Source: the human T2T-CHM13v2.0 reference genome, Homo sapiens. Taken from it: a DNA stretch of 64,000 nucleotides. Position numbers and translations under genes: made by a program. How positions within the stretch are numbered: the first letter of the stretch is position 1; each line of letters opens with the position of its first letter. The stretch lies in NCBI RefSeq assembly GCF_009914755.1, contig NC_060926.1; one strand, 5' to 3'. Positions 9,482 through 60,545 of the stretch are shown one piece after another. The notes beneath the pieces are model-generated. The model was not told where the DNA came from and made no database searches. It saw nothing but the letters and a program-made list of their open reading frames with translations.

Positions 9482-9802
<321 letters not shown>

Positions 9803-39195: not shown

Positions 39196-40309
39196 AGGAA
39201 TCTTTCAACCCATGGTGTGTACCTACACTTTTTAATGTTTTCATTCTCCTCACTAGGGAGGGGGAGCCTCCAATTCCACTCCTGCTATGGGTACATTCCC
39301 CTTCATCTGCTCTTCCCCTGATTTCTATAAGGGGGGTTAATTGATCTATGGACGATCAGCAGCACAGCCTAAGGAGTCCCCAGTGTTCATGGCAGACAGC
39401 CTGTCTCAGTCTGGCTATCTGACCACCAGTGTTTCTGTGCCACCTGGCCAAGTGCTAATGAGAAAGTTGTATAGACGTTTGTTGCTTCACACAATAGGTA
39501 GAATAAAGGAGTTCACAGTTCCTCAAGAAGATTGAAAGGGACTCTGATATCTGGTGTGGACCAAATGCCAGCCAGGGAGCTCTGGCACCCTAGGGGTTAT
39601 GCAAGGGAAGGCAGCTCTCAGAGCACAGAGGGGTGAGAGCTGTCTCTAAAGGCCTGGGCTGAATGGGAACATTTTGCAAAACTTGCTTAGAAACCCTGGT
39701 TCCTAAGCAATTGATTCCTGTTGGGGTCCCACTGGGAAAGATTGTTTCTGAACAGTCTGGATGGAAAGGAAATGGTGGCATTTTTAGAGAGAGAAAATAA
39801 ACTTGCTCTGTTATTTAAACCCAAATACTAGGATAAATACTAGAATCTAGGGTCCTTTTAAAGTTGTTTCAAAGCTGCAGAAAGAAACACAATAAAAGTT
39901 GAATAAGGATTTATGTTATATAGTCATCCATGCAAGCAAGTAGACTGACTGGTAAATAAAGTATAGTGTGATTATTATAATTTAGGTCACAGACAGTATA
40001 AGCGTAGTGAATTTCCTGCATTAGAAAACTAAGCCTCTTGTATTAAGTGAAGCACACTGGACATTTAATATGGTTTTTACAACAAAAACTGAGCTCTATA
40101 AATGGAGGGTCCTGAAATGATGGTGTGCAGGGAGGGAGGGGGAGTATTCTAAGTTGAATTTCAGGGGAACATATTTTATGATTCCTTTTAAGTAACAACA
40201 CCACCTTTCTCTCACATCTCCACCAACTCAAACTACCCCCATGAAGTCACCGACAAACTTTGGATTTAGAGACCTGGCATCATAGGTAGCAAAGACAGAT
40301 GAGAACTGA

Positions 40310-40634
<325 letters not shown>

Positions 40635-40730
40635 CATAAAGAAAACTTTTACCTGTGACCAGTTAAACAAACAAACTTGGATAAAGCAAAATAAATAAAT
40701 AAATAAATGGAAGTCTTTTGAGAAAAAAGA

Positions 40731-40878
40731 GATATACTTTATATATTATATATTTCATATATATACACTTATATATACATATAAACATACAAAAATGCAC
40801 ATACATGCCAACATATACACATACACATATATGTTATATGTGTACACATACATACACACATACCACATATAGATATGA
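40731..40878. repeat. Degenerate (TA)n/(CA)n low-complexity tract
   Basis: Alternating purine-pyrimidine runs read directly. Confidence 0.8.
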
Positions 40879-41444
40879 TAACGCTCTGAAAGAATAATAA
40901 AAATGTGTATAGTGTTTTGATCTTAAGATTGAAAGACAGCAGGGCTTAGTATCATAACAGAGTAAGTAATAAACTGTGTTTATGGTGGTAGCAGACAATT
41001 ACATCCTTTGACTACCTGAGCTTTTAAAATTCAGAGATTTACAATCTTCCAACAATTAAGTGGAAAACGTTACTGGGTAATTAAAATGGGTGTCTTTCAA
41101 CAAGAATTCTTTCTCAGAAGGAAGGACTAAAATCCTGGGCGTTTTCAGAGAATCACGATTGTTCCAATTCCATGGACAAACATGTGACTTAAAAAGACAT
41201 CCATGGAAGCAACCCTCTGAGGTGTTTTAAAGGTGGCAAATATGTCTGGCCCTGTATGACTACATGCTATGATTTACTCTGCTCTGCAGTGCTCCTGAGA
41301 ATACCAATGAGTCCTGGAGCCCGATCTGGAGTCAGAGGGAATGACGGCTGGCTGGGGTCAGCAGGACAATTGTGGGAATGGGTGCGGTGGATGGTAGGAG
41401 TGCGGGCAGAGGGAGCGTGTTTTAGACCAGTTGGGAGTTTGACC

Positions 41445-41678
41445 CTTGAAACAGGGAATCAGAAGTACACGGCTTCCACTTTGAGTTTATGCCTTTAAAT
41501 AACATGGGACTTCAGATGATTTAACTAACTTTGACAAACCTTTTCTCACATCCTTAATGGGGAATAATGAGGCCTAGCAGATTTCTTTTATGAGGATTAA
41601 ACGAGATAATACATGTGAAACACTCCAGACGGTACACAGGACCGTTGAAGCCCTCTACAGAGAGTAGCCACTATTATC
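41445..41678 (+). mobile_element. MIR
   Basis: aatggggaataat...tgaggattaaacgagataatacatgtgaaa. Confidence 0.7.
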
Positions 41679-41816
41679 CTCACCCTTGCATTTTATATTT
41701 GTAAGTATTTTACGTTCTTTATGTATGGGCCCTAACAATGCCCAGGGATATTTTTAAAGGAAAATATTGGAGAGATTAACTTCATAATAAGCTGTAGATA
41801 TTAAGTTGCACTTTAA

Positions 41817-42070
41817 GTGTAGCAGAGTGGTTAAAAACTTGGGCTAAAGTTTGAGAAGACTGAGATCAAGGGCCTGTTCTGAAAAACAGATACATCACCT
41901 TTAAAAACTTTTGAACTTCCCTAAGTCCTCTTTTGTTCATCTGTAAAATGAGAATAATAGTAAAAGTTCCTTACTTCTGGGATGACTGGGAAGCATAAAT
42001 GCCTATGAAGTGCTTGGCATGGTGACTGATATATATATTTAGTCCTCAATAAATATTAGCTGCTAATAAT
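41817..42070 (+). mobile_element. MIR
   Basis: gtggttaaaa start, catctgtaaaatgagaataatag core, ctcaataaatattagctg end. Confidence 0.75.
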
Positions 42071-42274
42071 ATTAATACAAATAATTGCATATACTAAAAA
42101 CCTAAAGAGTGTTTTCTAATTTTTTAAATAAAAACATTTCTCATTTTTGGTGGTGATCCTATACCAAATATATGAAGCAATAAAATAAAAATGAGCAAAT
42201 AAATTAAAAAAAAACACAGAAAGGAAAACAATCTCATGTATTATCTGAAAATGATGAACATAAAGGTATAAAAG

Positions 42275-42661
<387 letters not shown>

Positions 42662-42754
42662 TTAGATAAAAAATACTCTAATTTAAATTGGTTTAATTTG
42701 CCCATGCTCACAACTGCTGCCTTATATATGTCTAGTGAAAATATTTGTTTATAT

Positions 42755-43445
42755 AATCAGTCATTTATGTATTAAATATTTTTGAGCATCAGCTAGTTCC
42801 TGTTCCCGAGGAGCCTGCTCCCTGATGGGTATGATAAACAATAAACAAACTGACAAATTACGCAAATTATTCTATATTAAAAATCCCAAGGAGTGCTGTG
42901 AAGGAGTATAGAGTGCAGTTAGCAGTAAAATCTAATTCAGACGGGGGGATTAGGGAGGGGTTCCCTAAGAAACTAACATCTAAGCTAGGACCTATAGGGT
43001 GGGCAAAAATTAGCTGGAGAATGAACATTCAAGGCAGAAGCAACTGGAAGCATGAAGCCTCCAATGTGGGAAGGATGAGGAGAAACCTCCAGGAAACAGA
43101 CCAGCCTGCAGAGTTGTGAGCACCAGGAAAAAGTGCTAATGAAGCTACTAGAGTAGGGAGAATCCAGAACACATGGAGTCTGGCTGCCACGTCATGGGTC
43201 CTAGTCCTGAGCCTACAAGGAAAGAAAAGCCACCAGATGGGTTCCTAACAGGGGAAAATGAGAAGGGTTTTGCAGTTTAATAAAGTCATTTTGACTATTA
43301 TGTGAAAAAAACGATCGGAGGAGAGCCGAAGTAGATATAAGGAAATTGATTCAAAAGCTACTGCAGAAGCCCATTTAAGAGACAATGGTGTTTGGGATGC
43401 TGGTGGCAGATGAGGAAAAAAGTTGATAGATCAAGAAATATTTGG
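42755..43445 (-). mobile_element. L2, split by the L1PB insertion and resuming at 45034-~45190
   Basis: Antisense L2 3' end and body. gatagatcaagaaatatttgg continues as gggagacagaatccacaggacc after the insertion. Confidence 0.75.
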
Positions 43446-44763
43446 TTTCCATTTGTTTGTGTCATCTATGATTTCTTTCAGCAGTGTTTTGTAGTTTTCT
43501 TTGTAGAGGTCTTTCACCTCCTTGGTTAGGTATATTCCTAAGTGGTTTTTTTTTTTTTTTTTTGCAGCTATTGTAAAAGGGGTTGAGTTCTTGATTCCAT
43601 TCTCAGCTTGGTCGCTGTTAGTGTAGAGAAAAGCTACTGATTTGTGTACATTAATTTTATATCTGGAAACTTTGCTGAATTCTTTTATCTAAGTTCTAGG
43701 GGCTTTCTGGGGGAATCCTTAGGGTTTTCTAGGTAAACAATCATATCATCAGCAAACAGTGACAGTTTGACTTTCTCTTTACCAATTTGGATGCCCTTTA
43801 TTTTTTTATCTCGTCTGATTGCTCTGGCTAGGACTTCCAGTACTGTGTTGAAGAGGAGTGATGAGAGTGGACATCCTGTCTTGTTCCAATCCCCGGGGGA
43901 AATGCTTTGAGTTTTTCCTCATTCAGTATTATGCTGTGGGTTTGTCATAAATAGCTTTTATTCTATTGAGGTATGTCCCTTGTATACTGATTTTGCTGAG
44001 GGTTTTAATCATAAGGGATGCTGGATTTTGTTGAATGTTTTTTTCTGCATCTATAGAGATGATCATGTGATTGTTATTTTTAATTCTGTTTATGTGTGTA
44101 TCACATTTATTGACTTGCATCTATTAAACCATCCCTGCATCCTTGGTATGAAACCCACTTGATCATGATGGATTATCTTTTTGATATGTTGTTGGATTCG
44201 GTTAGCTAGTATTGTGTTAAGGATTTTAGCATCTAGGTTCATCAGGGATATTGGTCTGTAGTTTTCTTTTTTGGTTATGTCCCTTCCTGGTTTTGGTATT
44301 AGGGTGATACTGGCTTCATATAATCATTCAGGGAGGGTCTCTCTTTCTCTGTCTTGTGGAATAGTGTCAGTAGGATTGGTACCAATTCTCCTTCGGATGT
44401 CTGGGAGAATTCTGCTGTGAATCTCTTTCGTCCTGGACTTTTTTTGTTGGTAAAATTTTAATTACCATTTCAAACTCACTGCTTGTTATTGGTCTGTTCA
44501 GGGTATCTTGTTCTTCCTAATTTAAACTAGGAGGATTGTATCTTTCCAGGAATTTATCTATCTCTTCTAGGTTTTCTAGTTTATTTGCATAAAGGTGTTC
44601 ATAGTAGCCTTGAATGATCTTTTGTATTTCTGTGGTGTCAGTTATGATATCTCCTGTTTCATTTCTGATTGAGCTTATTTGGATTTTCTCTCTTATTTTC
44701 TTGGTTAACGTTGCAATGGTCTGTTGATTTTATTTATCCTTCCAAAAAGCCAGCTTTGTGTTT
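43446..44763 (-). mobile_element. Inverted ORF2 segment of a 5'-inverted L1 (L1PB-like)
   Basis: The minus-strand ORF 43929-44120 encodes the ORF2p RT-like peptide [19 protein letters not shown]. Antisense L1 throughout. Confidence 0.92.
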
Positions 44764-44812
44764 GTAACCAAACAACACCTGTTCCCCAATAACCTATGGA
44801 AATTAAAAAAAA
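44764..44812 (+). mobile_element. L1PB-type extreme 3' end and A tail (non-inverted part of the same insertion)
   Basis: gtaaccaaacaacacctgttccccaataacctatggaaattaaaaaaaa matches the recalled L1PB terminus. Confidence 0.8.
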
Positions 44813-45489
44813 GAAATTAGAGGTAATATTAAATATACAGTTAAATTTTATGTATATAAAATTTCTGTATTCCTAAAGAACAAATGGATATAAAAATATT
44901 GTCAACTAGCTTTACTTTGATTTTTGGGGTCTGTTGTTGTTAAAAGTTATTACTTTGTTTTGAAAAGATGACATGTCTTGTGGAAATTTTTAATACATAC
45001 TGAAATTAGTTTTTTTAAAAAAGAAATATTTGGGAGACAGAATCCACAGGACCTGGCTATTGATAGACTCCATGCAAGATAGTGAGGAAAATATGTCAGG
45101 ATAAGTAGGATAACCACAAGTCCTAGTAAGCAATTGGATAGATGAGGGTGCTCTTTGCTGATGTGGATACACAGAGGAAGTGCAGGGACATGGCAGGGAA
45201 AGTGGGAGGTGTAGCAGTGGTATTGGCGAAATAGGTTAAAATATTTTTAAAAATGCACAGCAAAGGTGAAATAAAACAATAAAATGAAAGATACAATAAT
45301 TAAATAGAAGAGTTAGGAAAAGATCAAGAAAATATTAATTACTGAAGGCACCAAGGACTTTAAATGGGGATGACATCTATTAAGTGGTTCAGGCTTTCCA
45401 AAGAGACAATATTTGCCTAAAAGCAACCACAAGCTCCAGTGTTATGTTTAGAATTGCTGGGGAAGAATGCCACTGACCAAAGTAAGTAA

Positions 45490-45700
45490 AACTACTAGTA
45501 TTTAGAATGCCCACTGTATGTCAGATACTGAACAAAGTATTTCTTATGTATTATCTAATACAATCCCCACAATCACCTCATGTGGTAGGTCTATGTTACC
45601 CGTGAGAAAAATGGAGGCTCAGAAAGGACTGGCCACTCAGCTGCTAAGTGGTAAATCAGGTGGTTCTGCCTCCACTGCTCAAGCACTTTCTCCTTTATTA
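45490..45700 (-). mobile_element. MIR
   Basis: atgcccactgtatgtcaga...aatccccacaa...gagaaaaatggaggctcagaaagg. Confidence 0.65.
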
Positions 45701-45849
45701 TGTTGCCTGTTATTGCAACATGTATCCTAAGGGACTTCTAGAGGTACCTATGCTACTATCTCCAATAAAATGTATGGGGATGATTAGCTGATATTTTTGC
45801 TTACCTGAAACAGTCCTTCATCTTTTGTCCGTAGCATCCTCATTTTGAT

Positions 45850-46312
45850 GTGAGTAAATCCCTCTCCACCATGAGGGTGCAGCCCAGGGGGATTGCTGAT
45901 AGATTGCCCTGTGTTTCCTATGACAAGGAGGTAGAGGGGCCAGTAGTTCAGCAAGGACCAGTGGAAATTCTTCCTGATTTAAGCTAGGAGGATTGCATCT
46001 TTCCAGGAATTTATCTATCTCTTCTAGGTTTTCTAGTTTACATGCATAAAGGTGTTCATAGTAGTCTTCAATGATCTTTTGTATTTCTGTGGGTTCTTCT
46101 TGGAAATGGAATGAGGAGCAGAGTGAAGCAAAGGCTGCCGAGGGAGAGTCTAACAAGACTCTCAGGCAGTTCTTGCTGCCTTGATTTTTGTGCTTCCAAA
46201 TTTCTTCTTTGGGTTTCCCAGTTAAGCCCTTCAATTTTTTTTCAGTAATTTCCCTTTTGGCTTAGATTAGACAAACTTAGTCTTTCCTACTTTCAACCAA
46301 GTAATCCCCACT
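45850..46312 (+). mobile_element. Ancient ERVL LTR remnant (LTR16-like) carrying a 125-bp L1 insert
   Basis: The 3' end ttcccttttggcttagattag...ctactttcaaccaag resembles LTR16-group termini. The 5' boundary is uncertain. Confidence 0.4.
45968..46092 (-). mobile_element. 125-bp internal L1 ORF2 fragment without poly-A
   Basis: Ungapped match to 44511-44635 (7 mismatches by manual count). Encodes TEIQKIIEDYYEHLYA-like ORF2p sequence on the minus strand. Confidence 0.9.
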
Positions 46313-46593
46313 AAAACGTTAGACCCATTTCATTCTAAAGAATCAGGAGCTGTGTATAGGGGACACATTGCTCTTGAAGCTCCATCTGCAGCTATTTTGC
46401 TCTGGTGTGCTTTGTGAAGGAGGCGAGGGACAAGTTTGCAAACTCCTATGAGTGAGTGCATGAGCAAGGGTGTTGTCTGATAAATTTCTATAGGAGTGGT
46501 TAAGGGGCAGTGGCTAGCCTCCTTCTAACCTGCTTAATAAAGGGAGGGTTTCACAGAGAAAGTTGATTTTGAGCAGAGTTTGGAATAAAGTGG

Positions 46594-46962
46594 TGTATTT
46601 TTTTCACACTACTATAAAGAACTACCTGAGACTGGGTAATTTATGAGGAAAAGAAGTTTAAGTGACTCACAGTTCTGCAGGCTAAACAGGAAACATGGCT
46701 GAGAGGCCTCAGGAAATTTACAATCATGATAGAAAGTGAAAGGGAAGCAAGCATGTCTTACCATGGCAAAGCAGGTGGAGTGGGGGGAACTGCCACACAC
46801 TTTCAAACCATCAGACCTCATGAGAACTCACTCACTATCATGGGAACAACATGGAGGAAGCCACCCCCATGATCCAATCACCTCCCACTATGTCCCTCCT
46901 CTGACGTGTGGGGATTACAATTCGAGATGATATTTGGGTGGGGATAGAGCCAAACCATATCA
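46594..46962 (-). mobile_element. MSTA-like MaLR solo LTR
   Basis: ataaagaactacctgagactgggtaatttat at one end and agccaaaccatatca at the other. TSD agtgg/agtga. Confidence 0.88.
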
Positions 46963-47104
46963 AGTGATTAAAACAAAAATTGCTGGTCAACAGGTAGGAA
47001 GTTGCTTTGTTAGCATAGAGTTACGAAATTTCTATGTCAGAGAGAAACTTTTACTGGATACACACAAAAGAAAATAGTTATTTGAATGTAATTATGTCTA
47101 ATGA

Positions 47105-47454
<350 letters not shown>

Positions 47455-48182
47455 AAAATGTTTTATATGTTTGAATTTTTATCATAACCCATTGGCTTTT
47501 TGAGAAACATTTTCTTCTTGAAAAAAAGTTTGATTCTTCAAATACTTCAAACTCTTCTTTAATGAATTATGTCAACTTTAATCCGTGGAGCAATGCATTC
47601 TTCTGAGTGAAGACACAATCTTATTAGAAGGATCATTCCTGCAATTCCTAGGTTTTGAGATGACAAGTGATCATGTGGAATAGGCAACCATTGGAGAATT
47701 ATCTGGGGAAGCAGAATGGGTGTTTCTAGGGTGACCAGAGAAGGGTAACAAACATAGACATGTGAGACTTGTACATGTTCAGAACCAGAAGTTTCCCTAA
47801 AAAATGTAAATTTAAGGGTGCACTTTGGGGACACTGTCTGAACTGCAGAAGGAGGCATAATGACCCAGGGAGACAGACACTGTGGGAATAGCTGACTTCC
47901 AACATCGGTGATAAAAAGGACTGAGATTCCTACTGAGAAATGGGCTCACACTGTTTTTAAGTTTAAAGGTGGGCACTGCCCTTTCTCCTTTCTACTCGTA
48001 TCCTTCACTGCAATGGTCTGTTTGTGACATCTTTTTCCTTCAAGAGTGTCATTAAGGTAGACTTTTACCTATTTTCATTTTACAAAAGTATTTCAGAAAG
48101 TGAAAAGTGCAGTGTCCTTCCCCTATGTTAGGTCTTCTCTGAAGAGCCTGAAAAGTACATGTGAACTAGACATAAAACATCT

Positions 48183-49270
48183 GAAAACCTAGGCAATACC
48201 ATTCAGGACATAGGCATGGGCAAGGACTTCATGTCTAAAACACCAAAAACAGTGGCAACAAAAGCCAAAATTGACAAATGGGATCTAATGAAACTAAAGA
48301 GCTTCTGCACAGCAAAAGAAACTACCATCAGAGTGAACAGGCAATCTACAGAATGGGAGAAAATTTTTGCAGTCTACTCATCTGACAAAGGGCTAATACC
48401 CAGAATCTACAAACAAACTTACAAGAAAAAAACAAACCACCCCATCAAAAAGTGGGCAAAGGATATGAACAGACACTTCTCAAAAGAAGACATTTACGCA
48501 GCCAAGAGACACATGAAAAAATGCTCATCATCACTGGCCATCAGAGAAATGCATATAAAAACCACAATGAGATATCATCTCACACCAGTTAGAATGGTGA
48601 TCATTAAAAGGTCAGGAAACAACAGGTGCTGGAGAGGATGTGGAGAAATAGGAACACTTTTACACTGCTGGTGGGACTGTAAACTAGTTCAACCATTGTG
48701 GAAGACAGTGTGGCAATTCCTCAGGGATCTAGGACTAGAAATACCATTTGACCCAGCCATCCCATTACTGGGTATATACCCAAAGGAATATAAATCATGC
48801 TTCTATAAAGACACATACACATGTATGTTCATTGCGGCACTACTCACAATAGCAAAGACTTGGAGCCAACCCAAATGTCCAACAATGATAGACTGGATTA
48901 AGAAAATGTGGCACATATACACCATGGAATACTGTGCAGCCATAAAAAAGGATGAGTTCATGTCCTTTGTAGGGACATGGATGAAGCTGGAAACCATCAT
49001 TCTCACCAAACTATCGCAAGGACAAAAAAACCAAACACCACGTGTTCTCACTCATAGGTGGGAATTGAACAATGAGAACACAGGAAGGGGAACATCACAC
49101 ACTGGGGCCTGTTGTGGGGTGGGGTAGGGAGGAGGGATAGCATTAGGAGATATACCTAATGTAAACGACAAGTTAATGGGTGCAGCTCACCAACATGGCA
49201 CATGTATACATATGTAACAAACCTGCATGTTGTGCACATGTACCCTAGAACTTAAAGTATAAATATATAT

Positions 49271-49333
<63 letters not shown>

Positions 49334-49339
49334 AAAAAA
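48183..49339 (+). mobile_element. 5'-truncated L1PA (L1PA3-5-like): ORF2 C-terminus and 3' UTR
   Basis: ORF 48216-49127 is the ORF2p C-terminus with the Cys-rich motif [18 protein letters not shown], frameshifted near its end. G-rich 3' UTR tract. Ends ccctagaacttaaagtataa. Confidence 0.95.
49263..49330. repeat. (AT)n microsatellite in the L1 tail: (AT)10, a short interruption, then (AT)23
   Basis: Read directly. Confidence 0.95.
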
Positions 49340-49413
49340 ACGTTAAATTTGCCCTTTTGCCTGGTTCTGAGCACACTGTTGTAGGCATGATGGCAAACGT
49401 CTACTCTTTGGTA

Positions 49414-50100
49414 TGGGTGGGCTAGTACCATGTATTGATTTTTGTGGTTTCAAGCAAAACATTCTACAAACAAGAATCCCAGGCTGGCACAAAACTGAGT
49501 AGCATAGTAGTCCATTTCACCACTCTCTGAGACCAGCTGCTTGTGGACCCCACAAGGACAAAGGCAAGACCAGTCCCACATATGTCAGGCCATTGGCAGA
49601 AGGCCTGGCAAGAACAGAAGTTTCGCATGGCTTCTATGGACATCCCTTACAATCCTGGGACCTGCACCATTGCTGAGAAACTAATATCAGCCAATTCCAA
49701 TGACTCACCCTCTAATTCCTAATATGGCACCTTAACTTAGATAGACTAGCCACTATCTAACAGAAGGTAGAGTACCTTGCTGAGCCCTTTTGTCCAGGCT
49801 GAAGACAGCAGTGGGTCCTTTCTAAAGGAGCATCAGATCTCTGCATGTGCCAACCTCTGAGGAAACTCTGGCTCTATTTTGTCACAGATAAGGTCTGCAT
49901 TCTGTAGAGCCAGACCTTCTGGCAATGGTCTGACATGTGTGGGTCTGGTCTTATCTTTACCTGTGTGGGGCCCACAAGAAGCTGGTCTCAGAGAGTGGTG
50001 GAATGCTCTACTGTGCTCCTCAGTTTTGTGCCTGTTTGAGACGGCTTGTAGAATGTTTTGCTTGGAACCACTAAGTCAATATATGGTGCTAGCTTGCCTA
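49414..50100. repeat. Long imperfect inverted repeat: arms 49414-49609 and 49909-50100, ~300-bp spacer
   Basis: For example caagcaaaacattctacaa pairs with ttgtagaatgttttgcttg, and caccactctctgagaccagct pairs with agctggtctcagagagtggtg. About 80% arm identity by manual alignment. Confidence 0.93.
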
Positions 50101-50215
50101 GAGCAAATGCATGGAACTGGAAACCAAGAGATAGAATTTCCATATGGCTTTTTAGGAAAGTGAGCAGAAAGACCTATGAGAGTCATGGGTCAGGCTAGTC
50201 TGACTGATCCCTGAG

Positions 50216-50353
50216 TAGGGATGTCAGATTTTGCAAATGCAAATAGAGGATATATAAGTATGTATGTAATACTTGGGAAATATACTAAAATTTTTCATTG
50301 TTTTTCTGAAATTCAAATTTAACTGGGTGCCTGTATCTTAGCTGGCAACTCTA
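50216..50353. mobile_element. MER53 hAT MITE, internally deleted
   Basis: tagggatgtcaga / ctggcaactcta TIRs, ctgaaattcaaatttaactggg motif. Perfect 8-bp TSD tccctgag at 50208-50215 and 50354-50361. Confidence 0.85.
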
Positions 50354-51158
50354 TCCCTGAGACAGGGGCTATAATGAAAGAGAAAGTGATTCCATAAAAG
50401 CCAGACTGAAGACAAACAGTTCAAACAGGAGCAAGACTTACTGTGGCAAAAAGTCCTCTTTATCAAGTACAGCGAGTGGCTGAAGCACATCTGACTCCAA
50501 TAAATTTGTCCCATTAAGACCACATTCATTATGACCACCCTAGTTTCTTTGTCAGTAACCTTATCCTATTTTCCTTTTTCTTTTTCACCATCATCTTGCA
50601 CCTTGCAGACAGAGTTGGCCAGGTTTATCCTGACAGGTGCTGTTGAGTTGAAAAGGCTCACACATGAGGCATTCTTTCCTGTCTCCTCTTACCCCGGATA
50701 TTAACATTCTATGTTTCCTAAACTTACTGTTAGTTCAATGCTGCCCCTCCAGGAAAAAGAATCTAAGAGTAAGTCACAGTTGCAGCACTCTGGGGGGAAA
50801 GAAAAGAAGATTGGAATAGTTGCCATGATTCCATCAAAACCCTGCCCAGAGATGGAAGGTGGGAAGGAGCAAAGAGAAAGTTTCCACTTCTGCCCTGCCC
50901 TGACTGTGTCAGGCAAAGGTAGTGAGCCTCTGCTCTGTGGCAGGCATGGTGTTTGGAGGGATAGCAAATCTTTGACAGAACAACAGGTTTTCTGCATTAC
51001 TCACATGGAGTAACACAGTCCCTGTAGTTTACAGTTAGTCCCTCCTAAGAAACTTTACCCTCACCTCCAAAATGAAGGAGACAAAGGGTGAAAGGGACAA
51101 GACTGAGGATAAATATTAAAGTATGTTCAAGGCTAGAATTTATTCACTCAAGAAATGT

Positions 51159-51452
<294 letters not shown>

Positions 51453-51494
51453 GAAGTGAGGAAATTTTACAGGGTCATTTTTTTTTTCCACTTA

Positions 51495-51830
51495 GGCAGT
51501 ATATACACCCACCGCCCAGTACCTAGTACCTAGAAGATATTGAAGAGCCATGAAAAAGATTGAGGCAAGAAAAAATACATTTCTGGGCTCCAAGACATAA
51601 AGAAAAGCTTCAAAAAATTTTATTCAATGTTTTATAAAATATCTAAAAATGTACTTTATTTCAGTTATGTAACTTAACTCATAATTACATAAAAAGTTGA
51701 AATCAGAAGAATGAAATAATTTTTTTAAATGCTGAAAATGGTAATAGTTGAAATCCTTCCAAAAATGTTTCAGTAGAAGTTATGTTTAATATGGAATGCA
51801 AGTGTGTTAAGAAGAAAGGTATTTTTTTTA
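51495..51830. mobile_element. hAT-Tip100 remnant (MER115/Zaphod-like)
   Basis: ggctccaagacataaagaaaa...aactcataatt motifs. Recalled similarity only. Confidence 0.35.
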
Positions 51831-52044
51831 AGTTGTAGCACTTTATATATTTCATATTGATGTCCCAGGGTTTTAGTCATGCCTGCTCTTTAATTTTCTC
51901 AAATATGGGAATTAAGGCATATTTTTCCTTTTGCATTTTTATTATATATGGACTCTATGCCATCTGTAGTCCTTTGTTATTGTGAAGTTATTCACTGATA
52001 ATTTCCATTTTATTTTTTAGAAGCATTTATATTCATCATAAATA

Positions 52045-52220
52045 CATTAGGTCTGAAAGGTCTTTAATTAATGCTCTGGTTCAATCTCCTCATTGTACAG
52101 ATGTGAAAATTGAGCTCCCAGTGATTAATTTGACTAAAACCACACACTTAATAAATGACAGAGATTAGTGTCAAAATTGGGTTTTCTTGTTGCACCTCCA
52201 GGGTTCATTTCTACCACAGA
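52045..52220 (-). mobile_element. MIR/MIR3
   Basis: cctcattgtacagatgtgaaaattgag. Confidence 0.6.
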
Positions 52221-54231
52221 ATACTAACTTTAAACTAAAACATTTCCCAAACATTTTCTCCTCTTTTGCAGAAGAAAAACATGTTCTTACATGTAAAAAT
52301 GCCATTGGCTCATCTTATTAAAATACAGTAGCAATATTATTTGTATACTTTATTCTTCTACCCAGGTACACAATTAGCTGTCCCAACCAACCTAATGGAA
52401 AATTATCCATGATACAGTGAAGATAATCACACTGTTTACTTGCAAATCCTTCTCATTTTCATTTTAAGTGTTAAGTCATGCCAAATGAATTTGGACATGA
52501 ACGCATTTATTACTTTGCAATTATTGGAAATTATAAAAGCAGATATTAAAATAAAAGTTCTTTTGGGGGTGACTTCGATACAGCGTATTAATTTTAATTA
52601 CATCATTCATGATCATAATATGGTTTTATCGTTAGCTTTTGAATTTTCTTACACAAAAATCTACTTGTCCAAGAATTTCTGTAGAGTCTATAACCAGAAT
52701 GCTTCAGTGCTCTGAAAGGAGAGTGAAATTAGCACAATAATAGCTTTCTTCTCTTCATAAGAATATTTTAATGTAGATAAAATAAGAGCATATTAGAATC
52801 AGATTTATAATTATATAGCAGGTTTTTTTTTTTTTTAGTCTGAGCTTCAGGTAGGCCATTTCTGCTTAGAGTCCTTAAAATTTTTAAATATTCACTATGA
52901 ATGTCTTATTAAAATATGTTCTACATCTTTTTAAAAGTCTTACAATAGAGCCATTTCCTTCCAGATTTTAATTTAAACTATTTTCATTGCTTTTTACTTG
53001 GGCTTATTTTACCTTTTCAGTTTCTTAAAAAATATTTCTTAGGCTTTGCATTTGTGTTCTTCTTTTACATTAATTCAATCAAATATCACATTACTATTTA
53101 TAAAACATATATATTTATTTTAAGGATTCAAACTCTTTTTAGTTTTAAAATGCCATGATTTAGACTTGCGGTTGTTTTTTGTATACAAGAACAAATATGA
53201 AAACTGAATTTTAGAGAAATCTCTAATTCCTATGCTAGTGACATTTCAAATTCAAAGTAGTTTAAGAACACTATTAGATGAGGCCTTTGGTATAATTTTT
53301 GACAGATGGAGATGAGTAAGGAGAAGCCAGTTTTGGAGTCCTTCCATTAACTAGTCATGAAAGAAATGTCATCCTCTTATTCTTCATTTCAACTCCATTC
53401 CTTCAAACTTGCCTTTCATTTGGATTTTATTGTAAAATTCCCTCAAGTTCATCCTTAACCTAGCCCTTATCACCCCAGTTTGTGTTCTTTCGTTATTCAA
53501 AATGTCCAGGAAATTCCTTGTTAGCTTTGCTGGCATGCCTTCATGAGAACAAATGTGAATGCAAGAAGAAATTTTAGTTCCCCTGCTACGCAAAGATGTT
53601 TGGGGGATTAGCAAGCACCTTGGGAATGAGTAAAATGATTTGTGTCTGACCTGTATGTTGGAGAGTAATGACAACCAGTTTTCTCCTCCAATCATCGATT
53701 GATTAGGGATGGATCCTCAGTCAAAAGAACCAAGCCCATATACTTCTGCCTCTTCAGAAGATGTTTAAGAATTTCAGATTGTTTAAAAATAAACAATGAT
53801 TTTTAAGAAGTCACCTGGGCCAAATCTCAGATTAGTTTTTATCTCCTCTTACTTTCATTTTTCTCTGTGTTCTAAAGCTGTTTTGTAGAAATATGTAAGT
53901 TATAGTATAACCTTTTAGAACAAATGCATTTTCTCTGACACATTCTCCTGCTAAATCCTGCATTCTCCCAGACCATGCGTTGTAAAGATAGGGAATGTCT
54001 TGACATGGGCAGCTTGCAGGGGCTTCCAAACTCTGCTCCACAAAGACCTAGGTATTCTGAATATTTCTTAGCATCTCCCCGGCGGCCCCAAGATGTAACA
54101 TAGGGATAAGTGCATAAGACTCTGTGTGTGTGTGTGTGTTAGTGAGAGAAAGCGTGTCAAACACGGTTTTACTCAAGAGATTATTGGTATTACCAATTAG
54201 AGTTCCTTGTGTCAATTTATTTAAACCATAG

Positions 54232-55001
<770 letters not shown>

Positions 55002-56677
55002 CAGACTGCTATTATCTAAATGTGTAATCTTTATTAAGGTGTTTCTCAAATCTAGGACCAAGGTTCCTCATTTGTAGAATTGTTGTCTAGATGTAATGAT
55101 TTGAAAAGTCTTTTTCAGCTCTCACAATTCTAAGATTACATGTTCTTTTTATACTATCATAAGTATATAGGGACACAAATTATAAAAGTAGGCTATTTGC
55201 AGCCTTTAATTGCCCTCTGTAAGCTAATAGGAAAATTTTAACTTTCCCATTCTTTCTTCTTCACCCTTCTAGAAAGTGATTAAATGTGTAACTAAGAAAG
55301 AGTGAGGGAGACCTCAGAAGGCTGTTAGGAGAAGATAAAGGGGTTTTTCTGGAAGCAGAACATTGGAGCAAGGTGCATCAGAAGACCTGTGGTGTATAGG
55401 ACAGTAGATCAGAGAAGAACAATCAAGATACTGAAAACATATTTCTGAGATTTATATATAAATGTCATGAGTTATTTTGAAAGTGTTTCCTTGCACGAAT
55501 ATGTTCTTTGCATTGAGATATGTCTCCAGAACTTAAACTATAGTGTTCATAGCTTTGTGAGTGTTCTAGAAAGCAGTATTGTTTAATGAAGTGAAAATTA
55601 CCTCAGAATCTGAAGTGTAAAACTAGTAAAACCATTAGGGGGTTTCCAAAGCTCACAACAATACCCCTTCTGCTATTCTGTGAACTGCTCCTACCCCCTG
55701 CCCACATAGATGACCGTGCCAGGCAGAATTTGCCTCCATGTCCATGAGGAGCTAAGCCATTACTCACTGAGTCTCAGCCTTCCTGTCACCTGTCTTTCTT
55801 GCTCTTGCCTTCCTGCCCTCTTTTTCTCTCCCTTTCCATAATCCATCTCTGCCACACTCTGCATATCTAATTCACTCGTCTTTCTGCCAAACAGCTTTTA
55901 CTGGGTCCATTTGGATACAACTTTCTCACAGCTCCTGGGTTCATATACCCTTAGTAGCAGACATCAGCAAAGATCAACCAATTGTTTTCAATCCCAATTC
56001 CAAATTTATAGCAGAAAAAAATTTGGCCAGCCCAGCTCTGTCCAGGCGTCTACACCTGGTACTGGCCTCGGCCCGGCAATGTTATAGAAAAGCCTCCTCA
56101 ACTGTGAAGCACCGAACAAACATAGGGCACTACTAGTATTCCTTAATTCTCTAAATCTATTGTTTCTAAAATGTTATCATCCTATGAACTTTCCATACAC
56201 AGGTCGCAAAGATCTGGTGCTTCCACAACCCACCAATTTGCCACATCATTAAGAATTACACATAGCCCATTACCCCGCAAGCAAACAAATGCACACTCTG
56301 TAATGGGGAAAATCTGGGCACTGAACCATGGATTCTCTCACTGTGCCAGCCCCACTCCACTGACATGGATTATAAGACATTATTTACTCTGGGCTTCTGT
56401 CTCTGAAAGTCAGAATTCTCTAGTGGCCATAACACTTGTCATTGCCCATCCTCCCCATTGGGTGTCCTGAGTGTTCCCTGTCTCCAGGCATTTTGTCGGT
56501 AACAGTGTCAATAAAGCAGAGGCGGTTTCTGAACAATTTATGAATGCTAACTAATAATCCCTCCTCAAGACAGGTGACTGAAATGGGTCTCACTGCCACA
56601 GAGATAATTAAGGAATATTGCCTAAAAACAATGGAGTGTCACCTCACTTGTACAAGAAACTTGTCGTAGTCAGGGAC

Positions 56678-57068
56678 TCTTATGATCTGAATTATGTCAC
56701 CTTAAAATTCACATGTTGAAGCCCTAATCCACAATGTGACTAAATGTGGAGATAGGAGCTTTAGGGAGGCAACTAAGGTTAAATGAAGCCATGATGGTGG
56801 AGTCCTAATACAACAGGACTGGTGGTGTTGATAAGAAAAGGGAAGAGATCCCAGGGATTGGTGTGCACAGAGAAAAGGCCATTTGAGGACAAAGTAAGAA
56901 GGCAGCCTTTTGCAACCCAAGGTGAGAGGCATCTATTGAAACCAACCCTGACACCACTTTGATCTTGTGCTTCTAGCCTCCAAAACTGTAATTAAATAAA
57001 TTTCTGTTGTTTAAGCACCACCCCTCCCCAGCAGTATTTTGTTATGGCGGCCTGAGTAGACTACTACA
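56678..57068 (+). mobile_element. MaLR solo LTR, MLT1A-like
   Basis: aaattcacatgttgaagccctaa start, aaccaaccctgacacc...aataaatttctgttgtttaagc, gactactaca end. Confidence 0.85.
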
Positions 57069-58909
57069 GTAACCCTGTTGACACACACTTGAAAACAAAA
57101 AATGAATATCTGTCTGTGGCCCAGGCCACCTCCAGAGAAGATGATCAGTTTTTCTCCCCAGGTCAATTTCTCCAATGACATTAACATCTGATTTCCACTC
57201 AAGTGATGTGATCAGCTCTGCGCTGATCTGAACTGGTCACCAAGACAAGCAAAAATCCCGAATCGAACCCGCCACCGCTTGCTGTTTTTCAGTTGTCTAG
57301 ACATGGTCATAAATAGTTGGATGACTGCTCACTATAAATTTTTAATGAGAGATTTTGAAATTAGAAAAGTAGAGAAGCAATTGGAATTTATGGCCTGGAG
57401 TTATAAAATAAGCAGGGACCCACCTGCAAAGCCAGCGCTGGGTTTCCATCAGCTTCCTCACACCAGTAGCTCTCTCGACTATGCAAGTCCAGAATGCCAG
57501 CCTCGTTTTTACTCCCCCGACTCCTCCTAGAAAAAATCCCACAGTATCTTTTTCCGATTCTTAGGTTATGGAATGAGAATTTTAAAATCACTCAGAAAGC
57601 ATCACATATAAGTCAAATTAAATGATTTGGGGGTTTTCTGCTAGTCTAGCTAGGTAGTTCCTAAGCAGATTGGGTTAATGACCCCTTTGAAAATAAAAGG
57701 CAGAGACAGACATTCTCTCCAGATAATATCTATATATTGCAAAAAATTGGGGGAATATACAGGAATCTTGAAGTTTATTCAAGCACTTGTGGATGCCTGG
57801 TTGATATTCTTATAAGATTAACTGTGCCTCAGCTTCCTTCTCTCATTTGGATCTAGGTTTTCTAAGTTCTGTTCCTGTATAAATTTGGATTTTCAGAAAG
57901 CAATATACCTGGACAATGTTCTATTAAAATACACTCACTGAATTAGGCTATATTACTGTGCCCTCAGAAAGGATAAAAACATATTTACATCTATATGCAA
58001 AATGTGTACATGCATAAGTATGTGCTGTTGTCTTTCTTTTTTTCCCCAAAATTTTAGCAGAAGACATTGTACTTAATATGACCCAATGTGTCTTTTACAT
58101 AAAGATCCTGGTGATGAAATGTTTTTTTCCCCTTGTTTCTTTTCACTGAGCTTCCTTCCACAGGCAATAAAAGCAATACAATTCAACATGTTTACCTTTT
58201 TTTCTTTGCTCCCAGAAATCTTACAGCTTAGTTTTATTGCTAACAGCAATAACCAACTTACTAAGAGTTTCTGGAAATCATCCTTTAATTTTAAGTTTAT
58301 TTAATTATTTTTAACTAGTTTGACCCAAGGAAAATCTTTTTTGAGATAGGCAGGACACGAAGGATAAAAGGGAAAAAGTTAGCAGCCAGCAGATAACAAT
58401 TGCCTTCAGCAGCAGGATAAGTGACAGATTTTAGTGGGAAAAAATATATATATAATTTCCAATCTTGACTCAGTAGAGTGAATGATACTCTCCTCTCAGT
58501 ACAAAGATGATACTAAATGTTTCACCATCAATGGGATATTATTTTATTCTTTTAGCTAACAGGTACTGACAATAAAACTAGATGCCAAAAACTCTATGAG
58601 ATGGAAATTGAGGTGGGGGAGTGTAAATGAAACAAGATAAAGCCCCTACCCTTAGGAGATGAGCCATTCATAACTTCAGGGAGAAGTGGTGATTACAGAG
58701 CAGAGTGAAAAGTACTGTGTGGAGTGTACACACAGAATATAACTTTTGTATGAGTTTTTTTTTTCAGTAGCTGAGTAGATATGCAACCCCTGTCTCCAAC
58801 TCTTAACTGTACAATCAATCTTTCATTTTGTCACAAAGTCAATTTTCCTAAAATTTTCACTTTCCCATTTAGTTTTCTTGATCAAAAAGTATAGTTTCAA
58901 CTTTTCAAT

Positions 58910-59540
58910 CTATAGGAAGAAATATAAATGGGCAAGAAAACATGAAAAGGGTTCAACTTCACAAAAATAGAAGAACCTCAGTTAAAAACTAGCTATCTTT
59001 TATTTTGCTAACAATTTTACAAAAAAAACCATGATGGAACATTGTCAAAATGTAGAGGAAAAAACACCATTATATATTGTCAATAGGGGACAAATTGTCA
59101 ATATATTTCCAAATCCTTATGGAATCAAGGAACATATGGAATCCATATGTTGAATCAAATGACTTTTGATTCAACATTTTTACTTCTATAAATTTACTCT
59201 AAAGAAATAATTAGTTATATATGACATATATATATATACACACATTATTACATATATGTATATACATAAAAACAGCATTATTTATAACAAAAATTATCTA
59301 ACAAACTATGGTACATAAAATTCCATAGCTCTTGAAAATGTTCAATATCATACAAAAACTTTAATAAAATTACTGACTATAAACAAAGCAGGTTATAAAA
59401 CAGAATGTCTAGTAAAATTGTACATGTGTAAATATGTATGTGTGGGTGGGTGGGTAGGTAGTTCATGGATAGATAGAAATACATAAAGACCTATGGATTC
59501 AAAAGTCTGAAGAATATAGATGGAAACACTGTCTCTAAAA
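58910..59540 (+). mobile_element. Old L1M (L1ME-like) 3' fragments
   Basis: aaacatgaaaagggttcaacttcac, cagcattatttataac and aaactatggtacat. Confidence 0.55.
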
Positions 59541-59715
59541 CAGTGTTTCTCAGCATGTGTCTTTAGGCCCAGTGGCATAATATATCTAAGATTTTGTTAA
59601 AATGCAGATTACAGTGTCCAAACCCAGCTTCTCAATCAGAGCATTGGGGATGGGGACAAAGGTTATATTTTAACAAGTCTCTCAGGTGATGATTATTATG
59701 TGGTAGAGAAGTGTA
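59541..59715. mobile_element. MER5-type MITE
   Basis: cagtgtttctca start, ttgttaaaatgcagatt, ttttaacaagtctctcaggtgat. Confidence 0.75.
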
Positions 59716-59729
59716 CTCTACAATTAAAA

Positions 59730-60545
59730 GGGAATAATATTAATGCCTAGTTCCAGTAAAAATTGCTTTCTGATACAGGAGTCAGCCCAAAGGTGCTCCT
59801 TATGGCCAAAGTACAATTAGTGTAACAATATAAATAACAATAGCATTGAGTCTTAAAGCACATAATAAAACACCAATTGTCCATAAGACCATATTGATAA
59901 AGAATTGAATAATTTTTTCCTTACAAAATAATTCCAAACAATATATGTAGAGACAAAGAGAGGAATAGAAAAATTACTATTAAGCAAATACCACAGTAAT
60001 TGTTGTAAATATGATCAACAATAGATGCTAACATTGATGGATAAAAGCTTGAGGGCAAAAAAAAAACAAAAAAGATATTTGCATTGTCTCAAAGTATCTA
60101 TCTTCCTCAAGATATTTATTAATTACAAAGGAAAGATTTTAACTTTATGAAGAAATGTGGCAGATACTACCTTAGCCAAATAATCAAGGGTAATAGCACC
60201 AGGAAAAAGAAGTATTGATATTATGAAGTCCTTGATAAGATGCACCAGGAAGGAGACAACATTATTTCTGTGGCATTCTTGCCAAAAAACTTTAACCTCA
60301 TTATAACATGAGAACATAACATAAAGAACAATGGAACCCACAATATAATCCTAGAAGAGAAAAAGAACAGTAGTGGGAAAACAGTTCCAATAAGGTACAA
60401 TTTAATTAACATTACTGACCACGGTTCATTTCCTGTTTTTGATCATTGTACAATGGTTACATACATTATTAATATTAGTGGTAGCTGGGTGAGGAATATA
60501 AGCACAGCCCATACTCTTCTTTGAAGCTTTTCTGTAAAATTCATT
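59730..60545 (+). mobile_element. L1MC/L1MD-type 3' UTR
   Basis: ggcagatactaccttagccaaataatcaagg, atttctgtggcattcttgccaaaa and agctgggtgagg...gcttttctgtaaa. Confidence 0.65.

What the first reader, a model, noticed from the sequence alone, without database searches (positions are those of the whole stretch)
49414..50100. Unique-sequence ~195-bp inverted repeat with G-U-biased mismatches: candidate long dsRNA hairpin
Seen: arms 49414-49609 and 49909-50100 are reverse complements at roughly 80% identity, with perfect blocks of 19 and 21 bp and a ~300-nt spacer. I recognise neither arm as a known repeat and see no flanking TSD. By manual alignment about 15 transition differences give G-U wobbles on a + strand RNA, versus about 6 giving A-C mismatches, so pairing is much better on +. 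A competing short helix exists (ctggctcta 49868-49876 with tagagccag 49905-49913). Known: non-Alu duplexes of this length are substrates for ADAR, Dicer/Drosha, STAU1 and the MDA5/PKR sensors. Inference: an old inverted duplication maintained as RNA structure, such as an editing substrate, endo-siRNA/miRNA precursor or structured lncRNA, possibly antisense to the microexon host. Alternatives are an unrecognised long-TIR DNA transposon, or neutral decay with strand-biased mutation.
Basis: partly seen in the sequence, partly recalled or inferred. Interest (0 to 1): 0.85.

Follow-up and report, generated by a model that had tools for sequence, protein, structure and literature searches.

The report
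Inverted duplicate of a retroviral relic
The inverted repeat is real, but its two arms are decayed copies of an ancient endogenous-retrovirus integrase fragment, duplicated head-to-head in a gene desert, and nothing here shows that the hairpin has a function.

Summary
The inverted repeat exists. The arms are 49421-49609 and 49909-50093, with 158 of 184 aligned bases identical, 5 small gaps and a 299-nt spacer. Either strand would fold into a long hairpin.

The arms are not anonymous unique DNA. The left arm (- strand) and the right arm (+ strand) both translate to the stretch of an ERV-L-type retroviral integrase just after the catalytic core, "P[QE].AGLREWWN.LL ... IHGT.PPI". They match many integrase-plus-dUTPase copies elsewhere in the genome.

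At DNA level each arm's only close relative in the whole T2T genome is the other arm. Both arms share the same 9-residue gap against the copies aligned across that stretch. My reading is therefore one local inverted duplication of an already divergent retroviral relic. It is now about 16% diverged (K2P) and decaying neutrally.

The claimed G-U bias is 11 versus 6 in the supported arms (p = 0.33). It reaches 15 versus 6 only if 7 outer bases that pair solely through G-U are added. No Rfam family, annotated gene or multicopy TIR was found. Transcription and cross-species conservation could not be tested here.

The parts
49421..49609 (-). Left arm. It is the inverted copy of the right arm. Read on the - strand (49597 down to 49406) it translates to an ERV-L-type integrase relic, ANGLTYVGLVLPLSLWGPQAAGLREW*NGLLCYSVLCQPGILVCRMFCLKPQKSIHGTSPPIPK, with one in-frame TGA.
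   Evidence: Arm alignment. tblastn to ERV integrase copies: (L065 29 of 67, L067 24 of 56). BLASTP against the L052 ORF: 22 of 56, E 2e-7. Whole-genome protein search: 46 matches at E<=10. Best score 41.2 bits against a shuffle maximum of 26.9 in 200 shuffles.
49610..49908 (.). Spacer of 299 nt, which would be the loop of the hairpin. It is single copy, has no detectable integrase or other protein-family signal, and contains the short competing helix 49868-49876 / 49905-49913.
   Evidence: Genome BLAST finds only itself. Six-frame read-through against Pfam gives 0 families at E<=10. tblastn with ERV ORFs gives no hit better than E 0.44 in the spacer. The helix is seen.
49909..50093 (+). Right arm. 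On the + strand it carries the same integrase relic, ...PVWGPQEAGLREWWNALLCSSVLC...RMFCLEP..., inside a 100-aa stop-free frame at 49861-50160.
   Evidence: Arm alignment. Genome protein search: 22 matches at E<=10, and 10 of the 18 non-self loci fetched are ERV integrase. BLASTP against the L043 ORF: 21 of 65, E 5e-10. 39.7 bits against a shuffle maximum of 30.8.
50094..50136 (+). Continuation of the retroviral homology beyond the right arm. MHGTGNQEIE aligns with IHGSRNQ(G/E)VE of the ERV copies. It has no counterpart beside the left arm, so the right copy looks like the original one.
   Evidence: tblastn and BLASTP alignments reach 50136. The left copy's homology stops at 49406. The outward extension of the repeat is not significant.
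49518..49538 (-). The 21-bp perfect block, with its partner at 49980-50000. It encodes AGLREWW, the conserved motif around the position of the integrase catalytic glutamate. That assignment of the glutamate is recalled, not tested.
   Evidence: Translations. The 21-mer search picked up ERV pol copies L014 and L019.

Best explanation
This is a locus-specific inverted duplication of about 190 bp of a decayed ERV-L-type (class III endogenous retrovirus) integrase-coding relic, lying in a gene desert.

Proposed history:
1. An isolated retroviral pol fragment sat on the + strand at about 49909-50136.
2. A single event copied about 190 bp of it in reverse orientation 300 bp upstream. The most likely event is a replication template switch or fold-back. 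An inversion with staggered breaks is a variant I cannot separate from it.
3. Since then the two copies have drifted apart by about 14% through ordinary substitutions and small indels.

The long hairpin that either strand could form is a by-product of that history, not a selected RNA structure.

Shown: the repeat, its uniqueness at DNA level, the retroviral origin of both arms, and their shared gap. Inferred: the mechanism, the direction (right copy original) and neutrality.
For: (1) The repeat is real and far beyond chance.

(2) Both arms translate to the integrase stretch that follows the Pfam rve core.
- Genome-wide protein searches return 22 and 46 matches at E<=10.
- Of the 18 and 8 non-self loci fetched, 10 and 5 carry PEA[AS]GL.E[WR]WN..LK in long open frames.
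- Those frames are rve (L043 2.5e-12, L052 2.2e-12), followed in one frame by dUTPase (L050 2.2e-12).
- A dUTPase C-terminal of integrase is the layout described for MuERV-L (passage read in PMC1224870).
- Pairwise BLASTP gives 5e-10 and 2e-7.
- Real scores of 41.2 and 39.7 bits compare with shuffle means of 20-21, sd 2, maxima 26.9 and 30.8.

(3) At DNA level the whole element, the left arm and the spacer hit only this locus. Two consensus patterns of 34 and 35 places with up to 3 mismatches hit only the two arms, with 0 control hits. ERV copies are only 67-70% identical over 66-67 bp. The arms are therefore reciprocal nearest relatives lying 300 bp apart.

(4) Both arms lack the same 9 residues (DNTLQGWGK) relative to the copies that align across that stretch. 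The copy was therefore made from an already divergent relic.

(5) Retroviral homology runs past the outer end of the right arm to 50136, but stops at 49406 on the left.

(6) The mismatch spectrum looks neutral: 17 transition-type against 9 transversion-type, G-U 11 against A-C 6 (p 0.33), CpG o/e 0.05.

(7) Template switching is a documented source of new inverted repeats in primate genomes (passages read in PMC10710096).
Against: - No outgroup genome could be examined, so neither the ancestral single-copy state nor the time of duplication has been observed.
- Each individual genome-wide E-value for the retroviral match is weak (best non-self 0.28 and 0.036). The case rests on many hits to one family, pairwise scores and shuffles.
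- One expected supporting piece, the frame-shifted SIYGASLPRA segment, is not significant on its own (E 1.5).
- The spacer shows no integrase-core signal on either strand. The relic therefore ends almost exactly where the arms end on the inner side, a coincidence the simple model does not explain.
- Published template-switch events that I read about were screened from 15 nt upward. An arm of about 190 bp with a 300-bp spacer may be larger than typical.
- The + strand does fold 26.5 kcal/mol better than the - strand.
- Neutrality is inferred from 26 mismatches only.
Confidence: 0.7

Rival explanations
1. Two independent insertions or fragments of one ERV-L lineage happen to lie head-to-head. 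Their similarity was kept or raised by gene conversion between the arms.
For: Both arms are retroviral pol sequence, and ERV-L copies are numerous. Inverted repeats 300 bp apart can exchange sequence (general knowledge, not tested).
Against: No other genomic copy comes near the arms' 86% mutual identity. The best ERV copies are 67-70% over 66-67 bp, and the pattern searches find only the two arms. The two copies cover the same about 190 bp and share the same 9-residue gap. No other ERV pol pieces occur at window 40001-60000.
Confidence: 0.12
2. The element is a functional long hairpin RNA, such as an endo-siRNA or miRNA precursor, an ADAR/MDA5 substrate or a structured lncRNA. It would be transcribed from the + strand, with pairing preserved by selection.
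For: A very stable fold: -373 kcal/mol on +, against -346.5 on - and about -214 for shuffles. G-U outnumbers A-C on + by 11 to 6, or 15 to 6 with the outer 7 bp. Hairpin loci made from duplicated selfish-gene sequence are known in flies and mouse oocytes (abstracts listed).
Against: The stability follows from any inverted repeat, and both strands fold far better than shuffles. The G-U bias is not significant (p 0.33 and 0.078). 15 of 26 mismatches and 5 indels disrupt the stem. There is no Rfam match and no annotated gene within 100 kb (hub table). The only CpG-island-like stretches in the window lie at 9501-9750 and 47201-47450, inside stretches the hub lists as masked repeats. CpG is fully decayed in the element.
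Confidence: 0.04
3. The element is a relic of a long-TIR DNA transposon or MITE of about 690 bp, and the arms are its terminal inverted repeats.
For: The overall shape fits: two arms of about 190 bp around a 300-bp core.
Against: No other copy of the arms or the core exists in the genome at the sensitivity reached. No target-site duplication is visible. The arms carry a retroviral integrase reading frame that continues past the right arm, which is not expected of TIRs. No transposase signal appears in the core.
Confidence: 0.03

Closest known systems
Template-switch (fold-back) mutations that create inverted repeats during replication (PMC10710096, passages read; PMC7954356 and bioRxiv 10.1101/2021.04.15.439925, listings and abstract starts only)
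   Same: A one-step local event makes a reverse-complement copy of nearby sequence. The result can fold as a hairpin and then picks up mismatches.
   Different: The events described there were screened from 15 nt upward and mostly concern miRNA-sized stems.
ERV-L / HERV-L internal (pol, integrase) fragments. The name is recalled. The layout with dUTPase C-terminal of integrase is from PMC1224870 (passage).
   Same: The translated arms match the integrase stretch PEAAGLIEWWNGLLKSQLQC...IYGTVSPIAR of genomic copies whose frames are Pfam rve followed by dUTPase.
   Different: Only about 65 residues survive, at about 32-43% identity. There is a 9-residue gap shared by both arms, a stop in the left copy and a 1-nt deletion in the right. 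No adjoining rve core, dUTPase or other pol parts were found nearby. The subfamily could not be named without Dfam.
Long inverted repeats (LIRs) of the human genome regarded as recombinogenic. The criteria of stem >30 bp, identity >85% and spacer <2 kb are attributed to Wang and Leung in PMC4319165 (passages).
   Same: Stem 189 bp, spacer 299 nt, identity 86% over aligned bases.
   Different: Identity is 82-83% once gaps are counted, so it sits at the edge of those criteria. The LIR examples I recall are mostly Alu pairs (recalled), whereas this one is a single-locus duplication.
Hairpin-RNA (hpRNA) and endo-siRNA loci built from inverted duplications of selfish or retroelement sequence (abstracts of PMC10317233 and PMC11239679 in the listing; the mouse-oocyte examples are recalled)
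   Same: An inverted duplication of a mobile-element gene fragment that could give a long dsRNA.
   Different: No evidence of transcription or small RNAs. The stem is only 67-70% identical to ERV copies over 66-67 bp. The best 21-mer matches have 2 mismatches, so targeting is implausible today.

Membership tests
ERV-L-type endogenous retrovirus, pol (integrase) derived sequence | Translated similarity to the integrase of genomic ERV copies, above chance | tested here: met
   E 5e-10; E 2e-7. Shuffles: 41.2 and 39.7 bits against maxima of 26.9 and 30.8 in 200 shuffles each.
ERV-L-type endogenous retrovirus, pol (integrase) derived sequence | The matched copies are retroviral integrase with dUTPase C-terminal of it (the ERV-L layout) | tested here: met
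   Pfam rve for L043 and L052 (2.5e-12, 2.2e-12) and dUTPase for L050 in the same frame (2.2e-12). L048 rve is below the cutoff (21.8 against 32.6 bits). Layout from PMC1224870.
ERV-L-type endogenous retrovirus, pol (integrase) derived sequence | Adjoining parts of the provirus (rve core, dUTPase, RT, LTRs) around the fragment | tested here: not met
   No further ERV ORF hits at window 40001-60000 beyond 49406-49597 and 49966-50136. The spacer has no Pfam signal. LTRs cannot be tested without a repeat library. It is an isolated relic, not a provirus.
ERV-L-type endogenous retrovirus, pol (integrase) derived sequence | Assignment to a named Dfam/Repbase subfamily | not testable with these tools
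Long-TIR DNA transposon / MITE | Multiple dispersed copies sharing the terminal repeats | tested here: not met
   Only this locus. The 21-mer hits do not extend: 2 of 28 loci reach 38-51 bp, and both are ERV pol.
Long-TIR DNA transposon / MITE | Target-site duplication flanking the termini | tested here: not met
   No direct repeat at 49414/49421 and 50093/50100 by reading. This is a weak test for an old element.
Local inverted duplication by template switch or fold-back | The two arms are each other's nearest relatives in the genome and share derived differences from the source family | tested here: met
   for uniqueness.
Local inverted duplication by template switch or fold-back | An ancestral or outgroup state with a single copy at the orthologous site | not testable with these tools
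   No mammalian genomes other than the window's own are held.
Local inverted duplication by template switch or fold-back | Microhomology at the junctions | tested here: inconclusive
   CTGGC and ACAGAA recur at the inner junctions, but the junctions are blurred by 14% divergence.
Functional long hairpin RNA (hpRNA, miRNA precursor or editing substrate) | A stable fold well below shuffled sequence | tested here: met
   z -15.9 on + and -18.3 on -. This is true of any inverted repeat and on both strands, so it does not discriminate.
Functional long hairpin RNA (hpRNA, miRNA precursor or editing substrate) | Strand-specific preservation of pairing (G-U over A-C, few disruptive changes) | tested here: inconclusive
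   11 v 6, p 0.33; 15 v 6 with the 7 outer bp, p 0.078. 15 of 26 mismatches plus 5 gaps are disruptive.
Functional long hairpin RNA (hpRNA, miRNA precursor or editing substrate) | Transcription, processing or editing, and covariation across species | not testable with these tools
   No expression, editing or comparative data are held. There is no Rfam family and no annotated gene (hub table).

The most novel reading that the evidence does not exclude
The hairpin is transcribed, for example in germline or early embryo where ERV-L-type elements are active. Its integrase-derived stem would then be processed into small RNAs or sensed and edited as dsRNA. That would make it a primate hairpin-RNA locus born from an inverted duplication of a retroviral gene, a mammalian counterpart of fly and mouse-oocyte hpRNA loci.
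Probability: 0.04. Interest if true: 0.55.

Novelty: new member of a known kind. Interest (0 to 1): 0.12.

Why it matters
It matters little biologically. The locus is one more decayed long inverted repeat in a gene desert, and its arms are old retroviral debris.

It has some use as a worked example. A repeat that looks like unique sequence at DNA level, and that WindowMasker-style masking leaves untouched, was identified as transposable-element-derived only by translated search. An apparent G-U strand bias also disappeared once the arm ends were set by statistics.

If it were transcribed, it would be an unusually long non-Alu dsRNA. At 86% identity with a 299-nt spacer it also sits at the edge of the published criteria for recombinogenic long inverted repeats.

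Tried and rejected
- Copy-number search by profile. A DNA alignment and a sequence-only covariance model R1 (built, tried) were not accepted for this genome. Sensitivity to relatives below about 80% DNA identity therefore rests on pattern and translated searches.
- 21-mer search. It gave 190 hits against 25 for the backward-read control. The control string contains a CpG, so it is biased low. 14 of the 28 non-self loci fetched are one unrelated high-copy family carrying CACCACTTGCTGAGACCAGCT, and their flanks do not match the arm. This excess is therefore no evidence of a TIR family.
- Arm extension. Outward to 49365 / 50169 and inward into the spacer looked plausible under lenient gap costs, but failed shuffles. 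The same applies to a match across the neighbouring L1-like insertion, where 3 of 100 shuffles score as high and the aligned stretch is AT-rich.
- Pfam on six stop-free frames of the element. Nothing was found except a JAMP hit at E 0.28, taken as noise. Pfam rve ends just where the relic begins, which explains the miss.
- Spacer as integrase core. No Pfam family at E<=10 in any of the six frames and no tblastn hit better than E 0.44.
- Frame-shifted SIYGASLPRA piece as independent support: E 1.5, dropped.
- The bacterial-type promoter and terminator scan is irrelevant to a human locus and was ignored.
- Rfam: only enod40 at E 0.88 and nothing at gathering score in the whole window.

Full report
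**The observation**

The region was read directly. The repeat finder reports an inverted pair at 49477-49609 / 49909-50041 (133 nt, 83%, 299 nt apart) and a second in-register pair at 49441-49469 / 50046-50074 (29 nt, 93%). A gapped local alignment joins these into arms 49421-49609 and 49909-50093, with 158 matches, 26 mismatches and 5 gaps totalling 6 nt. BLAST within the window gives 82.0% over 189 columns, E 6e-48, and no third copy in the 64 kb.

The 19-bp and 21-bp perfect blocks (49451-49469 and 49518-49538) follow from the mismatch positions. The short competing helix 49868-49876 / 49905-49913 is present and forms in the predicted fold.

Folded as RNA, the + strand gives -373 kcal/mol and the - strand -346.5. 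Shuffles give about -214 and -216. Both strands fold far better than chance, as any inverted repeat must.

**Arm ends and the G-U bias**

Those 7 positions pair only through G-U. Neither an outward extension (60 of 500 shuffles score as high) nor an inward one (480 of 500) is supported.

Within the supported arms, the + strand RNA would have 11 G-U, 6 A-C and 9 transversion-type mismatches.
- 11 against 6 gives a two-sided binomial p of 0.33.
- G-U pairs are 11 of 26 mismatches, against about one third expected if two thirds of changes are transitions split evenly between strands (p 0.22).
- Fifteen mismatches and five indels break the stem.
- The window as a whole shows no G+T skew (0.500).

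The strand bias is therefore not established.

**Is it a multicopy element?**

The window's own genome (T2T, 3.1 Gb) was searched with the whole element, the left arm and the spacer. Only this locus came back, and the left arm found the right arm at 82%. The search can therefore see copies at that distance.

Two consensus patterns, with N where the arms differ (34 and 35 places, up to 3 mismatches), hit only the two arms, and the controls gave 0.

The 21-mer with up to 3 mismatches gave 190 hits against 25 for the backward-read control. This excess means little:
- The control string contains a CpG, so it is biased low.
- 14 of the 28 non-self loci fetched are one unrelated repeat family with a fixed variant of the word.
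- The flanks do not match the arm, except for 38-51 bp in L014 and L019.

Profile searches of the genome were not accepted. Very old relatives below about 70-80% DNA identity could therefore be seen only by translation.

**What the arms are**

L014 and L019 turned out to be homologous to each other over about 440 bp (score 46 against 12-19 for unrelated pairs). L014 carries a dUTPase-like open frame. That led to translated searches.

The 100-aa stop-free frame over the right arm (49861-50160, +) found 22 places at E<=10. Of the 18 non-self loci fetched, 10 carry PEA[AS]GL.E[WR]WN..LK inside long open frames and 8 do not.

The left arm was read on the - strand with its one TGA as X. It found 46 places at E<=10. 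Of the 8 non-self loci fetched, 5 carry the motif and 3 do not.

Those frames are Pfam rve integrase core (L043 2.5e-12, L052 2.2e-12; L048 only 21.8 bits, below the cutoff). In L050 the frame continues into dUTPase (2.2e-12). A dUTPase C-terminal of integrase is described for MuERV-L (PMC1224870, passage read). The name ERV-L/HERV-L for the human copies is my recollection.

The alignments are:
- left WGPQAAGLREW*NGLLCYSVLCQPG---------ILVCRMFCLKPQKSIHGTSPPIPK, against HHPEAAGLIEWWNGLLKSQLQCQLGDNTLQGWGKVLQKAMYALNQHPIYGTVSPIAR;
- right PQEAGLREWWNALLCSSVLC...RMFCLEP...MHGTGNQEIE, against ...IHGSRNQEVE.

Pairwise BLASTP gives 5e-10 (21 of 65) and 2e-7 (22 of 56). Against 15 ERV loci the real peptides score 41.2 and 39.7 bits. 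The 200 shuffles of each have means of 20-21, sd 2, and maxima of 26.9 and 30.8.

Individually, the genome-wide E-values are weak: the best non-self values are 0.28 and 0.036. One extra piece in a shifted frame is not significant (E 1.5). Pfam did not flag the element's own frames, because the rve model ends at the residue where the relic begins.

I put the retroviral origin of the arms at about 85-90%. The 21-bp perfect block encodes AGLREWW, the motif around what I recall to be the catalytic glutamate.

**How the repeat arose**

At DNA level the ERV copies are only 67-70% identical to the arm over 66-67 bp, whereas the arms are 86% identical to each other over 184 aligned bases. They are therefore reciprocal nearest relatives lying 300 bp apart.

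Both arms lack the same 9 residues that the ERV copies aligned across that stretch possess. The DNA alignment of the arms has no large gap there. The copy was thus made from an already divergent relic, not from two fresh insertions.

Retroviral homology continues past the outer end of the right arm to 50136, but stops at 49406 on the left. This suggests that the right copy is the original. No other ERV pol pieces occur at window 40001-60000.

The spacer is single copy. It shows no integrase-core signal in any frame. This means the relic ends about where the arms end on the inner side, which I cannot explain.

The most economical mechanism is a replication template switch or fold-back that wrote a reverse-complement copy nearby. 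Such events are documented as a source of new inverted repeats in primates, though screened from 15 nt upward (PMC10710096, passages read). An inversion with staggered breaks would give the same picture.

K2P distance between the arms is 0.159. With recalled neutral rates this means some tens of millions of years.

**Function**

No Rfam family matches the element or the window. The hub table lists no gene in the window or within 100 kb. CpG observed/expected in the element is 0.05. The only CpG-island-like stretches lie inside stretches the hub lists as masked repeats, at 9501-9750 and 47201-47450.

I could not examine transcription, editing, small RNAs or cross-species conservation. A functional hairpin is therefore unlikely (about 4%) but not excluded.

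**Comparison and verdict**

The locus works like a template-switch inverted duplication, and its material is an ERV-L-type integrase relic. It is not a TIR transposon and not a member of any RNA family tested.

By the criteria quoted in PMC4319165 (stem >30 bp, identity >85%, spacer <2 kb; passages read), it is a borderline 'recombinogenic' long inverted repeat.

This is an ordinary, probably neutral feature: a new member of a known kind, of low interest.

Noticed in passing
window 48181-49343: The masked stretch just left of the element ends in what I recall as an L1 3' end (acatgtatacatatgtaacaaacctgcatgttgtgcacatgtaccctagaacttaaagtataa). It is followed by a (TA)36 microsatellite at 49258-49330 (TRF score 132) and an A-run ending near 49341. 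The TA tract is itself a perfect palindrome and dominates the inverted-repeat list. The insertion lies about 75 bp from the left arm.
   Followed up: partly
L008, L009, L011-L013, L015, L017, L018, L020-L022, L029, L032, L034 (own genome): 14 of the 28 loci fetched with the 21-mer are one high-copy repeat family carrying CACCACTTGCTGAGACCAGCT. They are mutually alignable over more than 100 bp and unrelated to the arms outside the word. The family was not identified.
   Followed up: partly
L050:964-1749 (-), L043:1420-1935 (-), L014 (- strand frame of 204 aa); open_frame column: Many ERV-L-type pol copies in this genome keep long open frames across integrase and dUTPase: 262 aa in L050 and up to 402 aa among the places listed. 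They are described only and were not studied further.
   Followed up: no
window 49414-50100 versus the whole window: The element is richer in G+C (47%) than the window (38%), and its CpG observed/expected is 0.05 against 0.18 for the window.
   Followed up: no
window 49604-49620, 49866-49880, 49900-49913: Short words recur at the inner junctions of the arms. CTGGC ends both arms and recurs at 49868. ACAGAA follows 3-4 unmatched bases on both sides. This may be microhomology from the duplication event, or chance.
   Followed up: partly
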